A stretch of DNA of 25,739 nt, from the IMG/VR virus record IMGVR_UViG_2675903417_000004. The stretch is one strand, 5' to 3'. The number at the start of each line of letters is the position of its first letter. Position 1 is the stretch's first letter. A program made the position numbers and the translations under genes. The notes under the pieces were generated by a model that saw only the letters and a list, made by a program, of their open reading frames with translations, was not told the DNA's origin and did not search any database. Shown here piece by piece: positions 17,721 to 20,071 of the stretch. The DNA comes from a virus. Lineage: Duplodnaviria > Heunggongvirae > Uroviricota > Caudoviricetes.

Positions 17721-19084
17721 TGTCTGCATCCCCTCTTGAATCCATGCCAAATTCCCTTAGTGCAGAACAAGCTGTACTTGGTGGCTTAATGCTTGATAAC
17801 TGCCGCTGGGATGAAGTTGCAGATCGTATAGTTGCTGATGATTTTTATACCAGTGCTCATCGTGAAATTTTCAGTGAGATGGAGAGGTTATTAAGTCATG
17901 GCAAACCGATTGATTTGATAACACTTGCTGAAGCACTTGAACAGAACGGTAAATTAGAACGCGCCGGTGGTTTTGCGTACCTTGCGGAGATGTCAAAGAA
18001 CACGCCCAGCGCGGCAAATATTTGTGCTTATGCGGATATCGTTCGTGAACGCGCGGTTGTTCGTGAAATGATTTCCGTCGCAAATGAAATAGCCGAAGCT
18101 GGATATGCGCAGGATGGCAGGGGCAGCAATGAATTGCTGGATATGGCCGAGCGCCGCGTTTTTGAAATAGCTGAAAAACGACAAAAGAGCGGTAGTGGTC
18201 CAAAAGATATCGCCAGCATTCTCGATGCAACGGTATCTCGCATAGAAGAGTTGTTTCAGCGACCGCATGATGGTGTAACGGGGCTTGATACCGGATTTAC
18301 CGACCTCAATAAGAAGACGGCAGGACTTCAGCCGTCCGATCTCATTATTGTCGCCGCCCGCCCATCGATGGGGAAGACCACGTTTGCGATGAATCTCGTC
18401 GAAAATGCCGCAGTCCGTAACGATAAGCCCGTATTGGTTTTTAGCCTTGAGATGCCGAGCCACCAGCTGATGATGCGCTCACTGGCTTCTCTTGCACGCG
18501 TTGATCAGACTCGTATTAGAACGGGGCAACTTAACGACGATGATTGGGCGCGGGTTTCTGGCGCAATGGGTATTCTGTTGGACAAGCAGAATATTTTTAT
18601 TGATGACTCAAGCGCCCTGACGCCGACAGAGCTACGTTCCCGCGCTCGTCGTGTTTATAAAGAAAATGGTGGTTTGAGCATGATTATGATCGACTACCTG
18701 CAACTTATGCGCGTCCCCGAGCTGCAAGATAACCGAACGCTGGAAATTGCCGAGATTTCTCGATCACTTAAAGCGTTGGCGAAGGAATTACAAGTACCGG
18801 TGGTGGCATTGTCACAACTTAATCGCTCGCTTGAACAGCGCGCGGACAAACGACCGGTAAATTCAGATTTACGTGAATCAGGAGCAATTGAGCAGGACGC
18901 AGACCTGATCATGTTTCTGTATCGCGACGAAGTTTATCACCCGGATAGCGAAATGAAGGGCATTGCCGAGGTAATTATCGGAAAGCAACGAAATGGCCCA
19001 ATTGGCACGGTGAGATTGGCTTTTAACGGCCAATACTCACGGTTTGATAACTATGCCGGTGCTGATTGGCAAGAGGATTATTAA
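17720..19084 (+). CDS. ban: DnaB-like replicative helicase Ban (454 aa from ATG 17720; track ORF begins at GTG 17714)
   Basis: DnaB N-terminal domain followed by RecA-like core: Walker A ARPSMGKTTFA, Walker B IMIDYLQLM, and LSQLNRSLEQR, GAIEQDAD motifs. Confidence 0.9.
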   Translation: MSASPLESMPNSLSAEQAVLGGLMLDNCRWDEVADRIVADDFYTSAHREIFSEMERLLSHGKPIDLITLAEALEQNGKLERAGGFAYLAEMSKNTPSAANICAYADIVRERAVVREMISVANEIAEAGYAQDGRGSNELLDMAERRVFEIAEKRQKSGSGPKDIASILDATVSRIEELFQRPHDGVTGLDTGFTDLNKKTAGLQPSDLIIVAARPSMGKTTFAMNLVENAAVRNDKPVLVFSLEMPSHQLMMRSLASLARVDQTRIRTGQLNDDDWARVSGAMGILLDKQNIFIDDSSALTPTELRSRARRVYKENGGLSMIMIDYLQLMRVPELQDNRTLEIAEISRSLKALAKELQVPVVALSQLNRSLEQRADKRPVNSDLRESGAIEQDADLIMFLYRDEVYHPDSEMKGIAEVIIGKQRNGPIGTVRLAFNGQYSRFDNYAGADWQEDY

Positions 19085-19263
19085 TGCAATGGAATGAGGA
19101 AAAGCCGATGAACATCCTGATCATTGGGCGAAAATTTGAAGCCATCAGTGATGTGAAAACATATACGGAAATGTGGGCTTATAACCTGGCCTGCGCCTTT
19201 AGTGAGGCAGGGGTAACATTGCAATACCATCGTCCATATTCCCCTCCCCGAGGATTATGTTGA
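19084..19263 (+). CDS. small ORF downstream of ban with Rossmann-like N-terminus (MNILIIG); possibly the N-terminal fragment of a frameshifted glycosyltransferase
   Basis: ATG 19084 overlaps the ban stop (TAATG); alternative ATG 19108 has a GAGGA Shine-Dalgarno; ends 5 nt before the next ORF, which is in a different frame. Confidence 0.4.
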   Translation: MQWNEEKPMNILIIGRKFEAISDVKTYTEMWAYNLACAFSEAGVTLQYHRPYSPPRGLC

Positions 19264-19267
19264 AGCT

Positions 19268-20071
19268 GTGTTGACTGCTGCGACCGCATGTTCTGCGAAG
19301 GCCATTTTGGCACCAGGATTGAGGTATTTTACTACGGTACCCGGGGAAATAGGCATGCAACTGTGTCGCCGATTCTCTGGATGGGTAGCCCAGGTATATG
19401 ACGGTTCTATGCTGGATTCGGCACCAGTCGATATTACTTTTACTGTCCGCGATGATACCTGGCGGTACCTGGATAATCCCGGTCGGTTAGAGCGTCATAA
19501 TCGCTTTAACAAACATGTTGGATGGGCAGCGAATCAGGAACTGTTCCATCTGGAAACCAAAACAGACGATGTTCTGCGTATTTTTGTAGACCACGCTGCA
19601 TTTGAAGTTAGTGGGTTTGATCACTCCTTAAGTATCCTTATGAACCTTCAGCGCCTGGCCGTTCCGTATGAGGCCAGAACGTTGACCGATGACGGATTGA
19701 TTACCATTGATCCGGGGAATATATCGGTAACCCCATACAGACGGACTCCGGTACCAGCAACCGAATTTGCAGCTGAATTGCGTAAGAGTGACGTTTTTAT
19801 TGTTACGCATCCCGAAAGCCTTGGATTAACTGTTCTTGAGGCGGCAATGTGTGGGGCGTTGATATTAACGCCGCCCGATTGTCTTCCGCCGGATCGCCTG
19901 GCTTTGGTGAACCATATGGTTATCAAGTCGCGGATTGATTGGGATGAGGTTATTGCTCGCGTTGATCGCGTGAAAAATGCTGAAAAGGTCCAGTGTCACA
20001 CCTGGTCGGCAATTGCGGAAAAGATGCTTGAGACGTTTATCACGCAGAAACCGTCGTGCGGTAACGGATAA
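19268..20071 (+). CDS. glycosyltransferase-like protein (GT-B / GT4-like C-terminal domain), start uncertain (GTG 19268, ATG 19355, or fused to the upstream ORF by frameshift)
   Basis: DVFIVTHPESLGLTVLEAAMCGALILTP resembles the GT4 donor-binding motif; no ATG near the 5' end of the frame. Confidence 0.5.
   Translation: MLTAATACSAKAILAPGLRYFTTVPGEIGMQLCRRFSGWVAQVYDGSMLDSAPVDITFTVRDDTWRYLDNPGRLERHNRFNKHVGWAANQELFHLETKTDDVLRIFVDHAAFEVSGFDHSLSILMNLQRLAVPYEARTLTDDGLITIDPGNISVTPYRRTPVPATEFAAELRKSDVFIVTHPESLGLTVLEAAMCGALILTPPDCLPPDRLALVNHMVIKSRIDWDEVIARVDRVKNAEKVQCHTWSAIAEKMLETFITQKPSCGNG

What the first reader, a model, noticed from the sequence alone, without database searches (positions are those of the whole stretch)
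19084..20071. Glycosyltransferase-like gene downstream of ban, possibly split by a frameshift at a C-run
The short ORF 19084-19263 begins with a Rossmann-like N-terminus (MNILIIG) and stops 5 nt before a 267-codon ORF in another frame that carries a GT4-like donor-binding motif but no ATG near its 5' end. The junction contains CCCCTCCCC (19241-19249). A single-base indel there would fuse both into one GT-B glycosyltransferase of about 330 aa. It may be a pseudogene, a sequencing error or a phase-variable gene; a phage-plasmid glycosyltransferase could modify DNA or cell-surface receptors.
Basis: partly seen in the sequence, partly recalled or inferred. Interest (0 to 1): 0.45.

Follow-up and report, generated by a model that had tools for sequence, protein, structure and literature searches.

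The report
Broken copy of phage P1 dbn
This is the known phage P1 accessory gene dbn (a putative sugar-transferring enzyme), knocked out here by an 11-base deletion that circulates in one lineage of P1-like plasmids: an ordinary pseudogene, not a switch or a sequencing error.

Summary
Window 19084-20071 holds a 59-codon ORF and a 267-codon ORF in another frame, meeting at CCCCTCCCC. The region is the orthologue of P1 dbn (P7 glt), which sits between ban and baseplate gene 5 and is 999 nt (332 aa, or 324 aa from a better-supported second ATG) when intact. The break is not a one-base slip. The window lacks 11 nt (GGCGTCGAAAG) that every one of 432 E. coli complete-genome records and 427 plasmid records has. 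The deletion is real: the exact frameshifted 59-aa product is on record on 52 independent contigs, and one Logan contig matches the window at 99.98% with the same junction. No other coding sequence in the window has a frame-breaking indel relative to P1. Intact dbn is under purifying selection (pN/pS 0.126) but is dispensable for P1 plaque formation. Other independent knock-outs exist, including P7 W31* and one-base losses in the short C-runs. The intact protein models confidently as a GT-B fold closest to GT4 enzymes and has an EX7E motif, although Pfam stays below threshold. Bacterial homologues lie in ABC-transporter polysaccharide loci, which suggests a glycan acceptor; the true acceptor is unknown. 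Verdict: an ordinary lineage-specific pseudogene of low interest.

The parts
17720..19084 (+). ban (DnaB-like replicative helicase), the upstream gene of the operon. Its stop overlaps the annotated dbn ATG (TAATG).
   Evidence: P1 annotation. gene call with Pfam DnaB/DnaB_C.
18447..18474 (+). Position homologous to P1's predicted sigma-70 promoter P2dbn inside ban (TTGAGA-16-GATGAT). Predicted only.
   Evidence: scan hit. P1 annotation mapped with the 1576-nt offset.
19084..19263 (+). 5' fragment of dbn: 54 native codons (M1-P54), then 5 out-of-frame codons (PRGLC) and TGA.
19108..19110 (+). Second ATG (M9, MNILIIG), preceded by GAGGAA at 19096-19101. This is the likelier true start of dbn (324-aa product when intact).
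   Evidence: in 7 IMG/VR loci with a different upstream gene, homology begins exactly here, behind AAGGAG; the distant homologues shown start at this position and M9 is nearly invariant across the alignment.
19245..19246 (+). Deletion junction. Eleven nt (GGCGTCGAAAG, codons 55-57 plus two bases of codon 58) are missing between these two bases. No flanking microhomology.
19247..20071 (+). 3' part of dbn in the shifted frame (residues P59-G332 plus TAA). The mechanical ORF starts at GTG 19268 (267 aa). Gene callers use ATG 19355 (238 aa).
19814..19840 (+). EX7E motif (E248-SLGLTVL-E256) inside the invariant THPES block, in the C-terminal Rossmann-like domain.
   Evidence: invariant T245 H246 E248 S249, nearly invariant E256. 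(the only stretch that matches Glycos_transf_1 and PDB GT4 sequences).
20092..20118 (.). GC-rich hairpin flanked by an A-run and a U-run between convergent dbn and gene 5. Probable bidirectional terminator closing the ban-dbn transcript.
   Evidence: -17.6 kcal/mol, z -3.4.
20118..20750 (-). Gene 5 (baseplate), the convergent downstream neighbour that fixes the synteny ban-dbn-5.

Best explanation
Identity and lesion (shown):
- The region is the orthologue of bacteriophage P1 gene dbn ('downstream of ban'; 'glt' in P7). It is the last gene of the ban transcription unit of a P1-like phage-plasmid.
- In this lineage an 11-nt deletion in the loop between strand beta2 and helix alpha2 of the N-terminal domain shifts the frame after Pro54. 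Translation stops five codons later.
- The remaining 274 codons have no ATG or Shine-Dalgarno-supported start near the break.

Consequence (inferred):
- The gene is a loss-of-function pseudogene. It is recent, real and inherited within one circulating plasmid lineage.
- Loss is tolerated because dbn is an accessory gene, not needed for lytic growth.

What the intact protein is:
- Shown at fold level: a small, acidic GT-B enzyme closest to retaining GT4 glycosyltransferases.
- Inferred: it transfers a sugar from a host nucleotide-sugar to an acceptor.
- Inferred with low confidence (about 0.3): the acceptor is a cell-envelope glycan, because bacterial family members sit in ABC-transporter polysaccharide loci and other temperate-phage copies sit in multi-glycosyltransferase cassettes.
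For: Orthology and synteny:
- 96-98.6% nt identity to P1, P7, RCS47 and several hundred P1-like plasmids (471 PLSDB records match), with the order ban-dbn-gene 5.

The lesion:
- It is an 11-nt gap relative to the five aligned comparators.
- It is the only indel inside a coding sequence in the 8.3-kb block 17354-25612 compared with P1. Elsewhere in the window, indels are intergenic or compensated in frame.

The lesion is real:
- The exact 59-aa frameshifted product is on 52 contigs from NCBI, ENA and Logan.
- Its 238-aa partner ORF is on 44 contigs, with consecutive accession numbers.
- Locus L097 is 99.98% identical to the window over 6180 bp and has the same junction.

The lesion is private to a lineage:
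- 0 of 432 E. coli complete-genome records and 0 of 427 PLSDB records share it.
- There were no exact hits in IMG/VR or in the species-representative genomes.

The gene is normally functional:
- All 80 IMG/VR loci are intact.
- pN/pS is 0.126 over 55 distinct alleles.
- A spread sample of 60 complete-genome records gave 57 near-full-length hits, all indel-free (the other three matched only the second half of the gene).

The gene is dispensable:
- CRISPRi knock-down of dbn gave an efficiency of plating of 1.3, scored non-essential (PMC10695390).
- Other independent knock-outs exist.

Signs of decay:
- The window allele carries R91G and D178E, which are absent from all 83 intact alleles.

Fold and family:
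- The AlphaFold model has pLDDT 94.5 and pTM 0.90.
- The EX7E motif is conserved across the family.
- Polysaccharide-locus contexts are shown. Phage glycosyltransferase cassettes are shown.
Against: - No reads for this particular sample were available.
- Low-level rescue by +1 ribosomal slippage at CCC-C (19246-19249), or reinitiation at GTG 19268, cannot be excluded from sequence alone.
- Glycosyltransferase activity has never been shown for Dbn.
- Pfam Glycos_transf_1 is below its gathering score (23.8-24.7 against 26.4 bits) and covers only about 85 residues.
- The acceptor inference rests on the contexts of homologues that are 31-56% identical, not on P1 itself, where dbn stands alone.
- An acidic pI of 5.5 is, from general knowledge, not what I would expect of membrane-associated GT-B enzymes.
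Confidence: 0.9

Rival explanations
1. Sequencing or assembly artefact: the gene is intact in the real molecule and the 11 nt were lost in silico.
For: No reads could be inspected. Some public P1-like records do have error-like indels; for example phage 673R5 has several broken genes.
Against: - An 11-nt loss in non-repetitive sequence is not a typical platform error.
- The identical frameshifted product is on 52 contigs from independent NCBI, ENA and Logan assemblies.
- An independent contig carries the same junction.
- No other coding sequence in the window is frameshifted relative to P1.
Confidence: 0.03
2. Phase-variable (contingency) gene: slippage in the C-run switches dbn on and off.
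For: One-base losses in the two short C-runs occur independently in pTZ20_1P, a Shigella flexneri plasmid, pH1998, phage 673R5 and the 66-aa product P0078.
Against: - The window's lesion is an 11-nt deletion of unique sequence. Slippage cannot reverse it.
- The tracts are only 4-5 C long.
- More than 99% of records share one tract length.
- Some of the one-base variants sit in error-rich records.
Confidence: 0.02
3. The split gene still yields an active enzyme. Either a +1 ribosomal frameshift at CCC-C gives a full-length protein lacking only GVES in a surface loop, or a two-piece enzyme forms after reinitiation at GTG 19268.
For: - The frame-1 and frame-2 ORFs overlap over 19217-19263.
- A +1 slip of tRNA-Pro on CCC-C (19246-19249), just before a CGA codon, would restore ...YSPPEDYVEAV....
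- The deleted residues fall in a loop of variable length across the family.
- The GTG lies 4 nt after the stop.
Against: - There is no stimulatory element, and no Shine-Dalgarno sequence at a useful distance (GAGGA lies about 14 nt upstream of the GTG).
- The 267-aa piece lacks beta1-alpha1-beta2 and half of alpha2 of the N-terminal Rossmann-like domain.
- Two of the three substitutions since the nearest intact allele are non-synonymous, at positions invariant in 83 alleles. This fits relaxed constraint.
Confidence: 0.04
4. Two genuine separate genes that merely abut.
For: Gene callers annotate two 'hypothetical proteins' (59 aa and 238 aa) in the draft genomes that carry this allele.
Against: - All the other P1-like orthologues checked (apart from a few independently broken alleles), and homologues down to 28% identity, are single ORFs of 305-350 aa spanning both parts.
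- The model is one continuous two-domain fold.
Confidence: 0.01

Closest known systems
Bacteriophage P1 Dbn (YP_006544.1; NC_005856 72659-73657), 'function unknown, possible glycosyltransferase'
   Same: It is the same gene. Identity is about 97% at nt level. The position is the same, after ban and convergent with gene 5. The terminator is the same, and the positions of the predicted internal promoters match.
   Different: The window copy lacks 11 nt (codons 55-58) and is frameshifted. It also carries R91G and D178E. Upstream, tciABC is replaced by a Band_7 gene in this lineage.
Phage P7 Glt (AAQ07543.1), 'putative glycosyltransferase'
   Same: It is an orthologue and is also a damaged allele. 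P7 has TGG to TGA at codon 31 and is annotated from an internal start, giving 287 aa.
   Different: The lesion is different and independent: a nonsense mutation rather than an 11-nt deletion.
Retaining GT-B glycosyltransferases of CAZy family GT4 (PimA 2gej, PimB' 3okc, BshA 6n1x, GlgM 6tvp, sucrose-phosphate synthase 6kih, WaaG 8b5s)
   Different: - Sequence identity is only 10-15%.
- Pfam Glycos_transf_1 is below threshold.
- The family profile reaches only 421 representative clusters and does not merge with mainstream GT4.
- The protein is shorter (about 324 aa) and acidic (pI 5.5).
- 'VDH' replaces the usual basic residues after the first strand of the C-domain (the GT4 side of this comparison is from memory).
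- Donor, acceptor and stereochemistry are untested.
Phage T4 DNA alpha- and beta-glucosyltransferases (1y6f, 1c3j)
   Same: Both are phage-encoded GT-B enzymes, and dbn is co-transcribed with a replication gene.
   Different: - P1 has no known hydroxymethyl-pyrimidine pathway (established knowledge).
- Homologues occur in polysaccharide loci.

Membership tests
P1 dbn orthologue group (PHROG 2518) | High sequence identity over the full gene, and synteny ban - dbn - gene 5 | tested here: met
   Identity is 96-98.6% nt to P1, P7, RCS47 and plasmids, with the same neighbours. The intact allele matches phrog_2518 end to end at E 2e-239.
P1 dbn orthologue group (PHROG 2518) | Uninterrupted ORF of 324-332 codons | tested here: not met
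   The 11-nt deletion causes a stop after codon 59. The window copy is therefore a pseudogene of this family.
GT-B fold glycosyltransferases | Two Rossmann-like beta/alpha/beta domains with an inter-domain cleft | tested here: met
   [not shown]
CAZy GT4 / Pfam Glycos_transf_1 | EX7E motif in the C-terminal domain | tested here: met
   E248-x7-E256. E248 is invariant and E256 at least 90% conserved in 62 homologues. The motif aligns to the corresponding motif of PDB 8xsg and MshA 3c4q.
CAZy GT4 / Pfam Glycos_transf_1 | Score at or above the Pfam gathering threshold | tested here: not met
   The two Dbn sequences scanned individually score 23.8-24.7 bits against a cut-off of 26.4. Only 17 of 62 family members match at E below 0.01, best E 1.2e-5.
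CAZy GT4 / Pfam Glycos_transf_1 | Retaining transfer from a nucleotide-sugar donor (enzymatic activity) | not testable with these tools
   No biochemical data were found in the two full-text searches for dbn run here.
Phase-variable contingency loci | Long homopolymer or short-repeat tract whose length varies reversibly in the population and toggles the frame | tested here: not met
   The tracts are 4-5 C long. The window lesion is 11 nt of unique sequence. All 859 other records carry the 11 nt, and only a handful show one-base tract changes.
Phage DNA glycosyltransferases (T4 AGT/BGT type) | Co-occurrence with a hydroxymethyl- or hydroxy-pyrimidine pathway, and a closest structural match to DNA glycosyltransferases | tested here: inconclusive
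   [not shown]
Known anti-phage defence proteins (PADLOC) | Match to a defence-system model | tested here: not met
   There were no PADLOC hits at E up to 1.

The most novel reading that the evidence does not exclude
The acceptor of Dbn has been unknown since the P1 genome was annotated. The most novel reading not excluded is that Dbn is a lysogen-expressed or early-expressed glycosyltransferase recruited from ABC-transporter polysaccharide loci, and that it decorates a host envelope glycan such as the LPS core that P1 itself uses as receptor. It would then act in superinfection exclusion or receptor masking. The recurrent knock-outs, including this 11-nt deletion lineage, would reflect host backgrounds where that modification is useless or costly. 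A still more exotic variant is that the deletion allele stays partly active through +1 frameshifting at CCC-C.
Probability: 0.2. Interest if true: 0.45.

Novelty: already known. Interest (0 to 1): 0.13.

Why it matters
It matters little in itself. It shows that one circulating lineage of P1-like phage-plasmids has lost a conserved but non-essential accessory gene, and that annotation pipelines report the wreck as two hypothetical proteins.

Three by-products are of modest use:
- The true start of dbn is probably the second ATG.
- Dbn belongs to a small, discrete GT-B family of about 420 representative clusters.
- Members of that family sit in ABC-transporter polysaccharide loci and in multi-glycosyltransferase cassettes of other temperate phages. 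This gives a testable direction for the unknown function of a classic P1 gene.

Tried and rejected
- Exact-junction searches in IMG/VR and in the species-representative genomes found nothing. The allele turned up only through the exact-protein index.
- The 51-aa version of the N-terminal fragment, starting at the second ATG, is not on record.
- The Lobocka 2004 P1 genome paper is not held in the library, so its comments on dbn could not be checked.
- The afdb50 fold library was unavailable.
- NCBIfam and PADLOC gave nothing useful.
- A PDB sequence-profile search matched only the EX7E stretch.
- The capsule-type locus L099 has no match in E. coli genomes.
- I looked for microhomology or direct repeats that could explain the 11-nt deletion and found none. 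Recombination between the flanking CCCC repeats would remove 16 nt, not 11.
- I considered DNA glycosylation as the function. I rate it below a glycan acceptor but could not exclude it.
- MptE-like hits for the neighbours of the phage homologues are below threshold and are treated only as leads.
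Full report
**Observation**

- An ORF starts at ATG 19084, overlapping the TAA of the upstream DnaB-like gene, and stops at TGA 19261-19263. It encodes 59 aa, MQWNEEKPMNILIIG...YSPPRGLC.
- A second frame is open from 19217 to TAA 20069-20071. Its first start codon is GTG at 19268 (267 aa), and its first ATG is at 19355.
- The string CCCCTCCCC lies at 19241-19249.

**Identity**

Megablast places the region in P1-like phages and phage-plasmids at 96-98.6% identity: 18 phage records and 471 plasmid records. 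In P1 the corresponding gene is dbn, annotated 'function unknown, possible glycosyltransferase', 999 nt and 332 aa. It lies between ban and the convergent baseplate gene 5. P7 calls it glt, and RefSeq calls the RCS47 copy 'glycosyltransferase family 4 protein'. The window therefore holds a known gene.

**Nature of the break**

- Alignment with P1, P7, RCS47, pSBF45b and phage 673R5 shows a single difference in length. The window lacks GGCGTCGAAAG between CCCCT and CCCC, at the junction 19245|19246.
- This removes codons 55-57 and two bases of codon 58. Five out-of-frame codons and a stop follow.
- So the lesion is an 11-nt deletion of unique sequence, not a one-base slip in a homopolymer. I could find no flanking microhomology.
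- A base-by-base comparison of the whole window with P1 shows that this is the only indel inside a coding sequence in the 8.3-kb block 17354-25612. The other indels in the window are intergenic or compensated in frame. The assembly looks clean.

**Is the deletion real, and how common is it?**

- None of 432 E. coli complete-genome records or 427 PLSDB plasmids has the deletion. All align across the junction with an 11-nt gap, or a 10-nt gap in three plasmids.
- Exact-junction scans of IMG/VR and of the species-representative genomes also found nothing.
- However, the exact 59-aa frameshifted product is indexed in 92 blocks of the large assembly collection. It is listed on 52 contigs (NCBI E. 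coli draft genomes such as EEU9177488.1, plus ENA and Logan).
- The 238-aa ORF that gene callers make from the 3' part is on 44 contigs, with consecutive accession numbers.
- One such contig, a Logan assembly of SRR30123999 (25.5 kb), is 99.98% identical to window 16084-22263 and has the same junction.
- All 24 contigs that were read share the same neighbouring genes.
- The deletion is therefore a genuine allele carried by one circulating plasmid lineage, not an artefact.

**State of the gene elsewhere**

- All 80 IMG/VR loci retrieved carry an intact gene.
- A spread sample of 60 of the 479 matching E. coli complete-genome records gave 57 near-full-length hits, all without a net indel. The other three records matched only the second half of the gene.
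- dbn is present in 477 of 5426 complete genomes.
- Among 55 distinct intact alleles, pN/pS is 0.126, which indicates clear purifying selection.
- The gene is nevertheless dispensable. A genome-wide CRISPRi screen of P1 gave an efficiency of plating of 1.3 for dbn and scored it non-essential, in agreement with an earlier report cited there (PMC10695390).
- Independent knock-outs occur. P7 has W31*. The products P0078 (one-base loss in the second C-run, 5 contigs), P0076 (PRK*, 8 contigs) and P0086 reflect other lesions. One-base losses in the first C-run occur in pTZ20_1P, a Shigella flexneri plasmid, pH1998 and phage 673R5.
- The short C-runs are thus a minor mutational or sequencing-error hotspot. 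With tracts of 4-5 C and more than 99% of records in phase, this is not a contingency locus.
- The window allele also carries R91G and D178E, which are absent from all 83 intact alleles, against one synonymous change. That fits relaxed constraint after inactivation, although the numbers are small.

**Start codon**

- In seven IMG/VR loci the upstream gene differs, and homology begins exactly at the second ATG (MNILIIG; window 19108), behind AAGGAG.
- The more distant homologues shown in the alignment start at that position, and that methionine is nearly invariant across the 62 sequences.
- The first 8-10 residues of the 332-aa form are poorly modelled.
- The real product is probably 324 aa.

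**What the intact protein is**

- Sequence libraries say little. Pfam Glycos_transf_1 gives E 4e-5 but scores 23.8-24.7 bits against a cut-off of 26.4, over about 85 C-terminal residues. Only 17 of 62 family members match at E below 0.01.
- PHROG 2518 has unknown function, and NCBIfam and PADLOC gave nothing.
- A homologue search found 74 proteins down to 28% identity, most of the full-length ones 305-350 aa.
- Their alignment has invariant D110, W151, A152, D173, H174, D183, F242, T245, H246, E248 and S249, and an E248-x7-E256 motif.
- An AlphaFold model built on this alignment is confident, with pLDDT 94.5 and pTM 0.90.
- A profile of the family reaches only 421 representative clusters out of 1.84 billion proteins. 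It is a small, discrete family whose sequence link to GT4 is confined to the EX7E region.
- The protein is acidic, with pI 5.5.
- The 11-nt deletion lies in the beta2-alpha2 loop. The 267-aa ORF would lack beta1-alpha1-beta2 and half of alpha2 of the N-terminal domain, so it should be inactive.

**Clues to the acceptor (inference)**

- In P1, dbn closes the ban transcription unit, whose promoter P1ban is controlled by a C1 operator. It has two predicted internal promoters. One of their positions is recovered in the window.
- A strong hairpin at 20092-20118 separates dbn from gene 5.
- Homologues at 34-42% identity lie in three bacterial contigs. One is chromosome 3 of Brucella pseudogrignonensis.
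- There they sit in a recurring block: a large glycosyltransferase of about 700 aa (a Glycos_transf_1 match in two of the three contigs), a protein of about 320 aa, an MptE-like protein and the Dbn-like protein. A KpsT-like ABC ATPase is present in all three contigs and a KpsM-like permease in the two that extend far enough. KpsS/C-type capsule-synthesis proteins were seen in one contig and a KpsD-type export protein in two.
- Homologues at 46-56% identity sit in other temperate phages together with further putative glycosyltransferases. One is in a P2-like prophage, between the portal gene and a KAP NTPase and the replication gene A. One is in a lambdoid prophage, upstream of terminase. These two share a DxD-containing partner of about 220 aa, 50% identical between the two phages.
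- Homologues at 31-33% identity lie in large phage contigs, next to a nucleotidyltransferase/mannose-phosphate-isomerase protein and, in two of the three contigs, a polysaccharide pyruvyl-transferase-like protein. Glyco_transf_8-like and Exostosin_GT47-like proteins were seen in only one.
- The family thus keeps company with glycan-building enzymes. This favours a glycan acceptor over DNA.
- I suggest a cell-envelope glycan as the acceptor for P1 Dbn, at about 0.3 confidence. Nothing here tests that directly.

**Verdict**

The finding is real but ordinary: a lineage-specific pseudogene of the known, non-essential P1 gene dbn, created by an 11-nt deletion.
- The proposed mechanisms (a one-base indel, a sequencing error, phase variation) are not supported.
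- Residual uncertainty concerns only low-level translational rescue and the unknown biochemical role of intact Dbn.

Noticed in passing
window 16257-17354 (ORF 16508-17335, +): The P1 tciA/tciB/tciC genes between upl and tRNA-Ile are replaced here by a 275-aa lipoprotein-like Band_7/SPFH protein (MKKTLISAAIILGSLCLTGC...). The same arrangement is in the Logan contig that carries the dbn deletion.
   Followed up: partly
window 5394-7771: This stretch has no blastn match (default megablast, E-value limit 1e-10) to P1 over the region corresponding to parS/parB/parA, so this element has a partition module diverged from P1's.
   Followed up: no
window 13419-13604 and 15203: There is a short unaligned stretch inside the dmt methyltransferase gene relative to P1. 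There is also a 13-nt insertion (TAACAGCGGTGCT) in the leader between the dicF-like region and the tRNA genes.
   Followed up: no
window 15405-15477, 15483-15555, 17363-17435 (+): Three tRNA genes were found by Rfam. They correspond to P1 trnA, trnT and trnI in the ban operon leader.
   Followed up: no
window 19108; loci L077-L083 and L085 at position 3001: The annotated 332-aa start of dbn (ATG overlapping the ban stop) is probably not the real one. Homology in loci with a different upstream gene, and in the distant homologues shown in the alignment, begins at the second ATG (324 aa).
   Followed up: yes
L002 (P7) 1685-2683; L003 (phage 673R5) 1685-2680; L086-L088: There are independent damaged dbn alleles. 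P7 has TGG to TGA at codon 31. Phage 673R5 has three indels and broken neighbouring genes, so the record is probably error-rich. Three plasmids have lost one C in the first C-run.
   Followed up: partly
L100 4349-7047 (P2-like prophage); L098 5843-8619 (lambdoid prophage): Dbn-like genes at 46-56% identity sit in cassettes of 3-4 genes with weak MptE-like proteins and a conserved DxD protein of about 220 aa. In the P2-like element the cassette lies between the portal gene and a 1354-aa KAP NTPase next to gene A. From memory, that is the position of the P2 old/tin defence hotspot.
   Followed up: partly
L099 1801-14063; L102 1-8065; L104 421-6804: There is a recurring bacterial block: KpsT-like ABC ATPase (with a KpsM-like permease in two of the three contigs), a large glycosyltransferase of about 700 aa, a 320-aa protein, an MptE-like protein and a Dbn-like protein. 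KpsS/C-type genes were seen in one contig and a KpsD-type gene in two. One example is Brucella pseudogrignonensis chromosome 3.
   Followed up: partly
L090 5190-10395; L092 5849-11130; L095 6524-10425: Large phage contigs (97-281 kb) carry a Dbn-like gene next to a CTP-transferase/mannose-phosphate-isomerase protein, close to helicase and, in two contigs, RecA-like genes. A polysaccharide pyruvyl-transferase-like protein is present in two of the three contigs, and Glyco_transf_8-like and Exostosin_GT47-like proteins in one. The target of this cluster is unknown.
   Followed up: no
L089 27593-28255 (P1 pmgO, outside the window): RefSeq labels P1 pmgO 'alpha-2;3-sialyltransferase'. That would be a second sugar-transferase-like annotation in P1, and it may be worth comparing with the MptE-like partners of Dbn homologues.
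   Followed up: no
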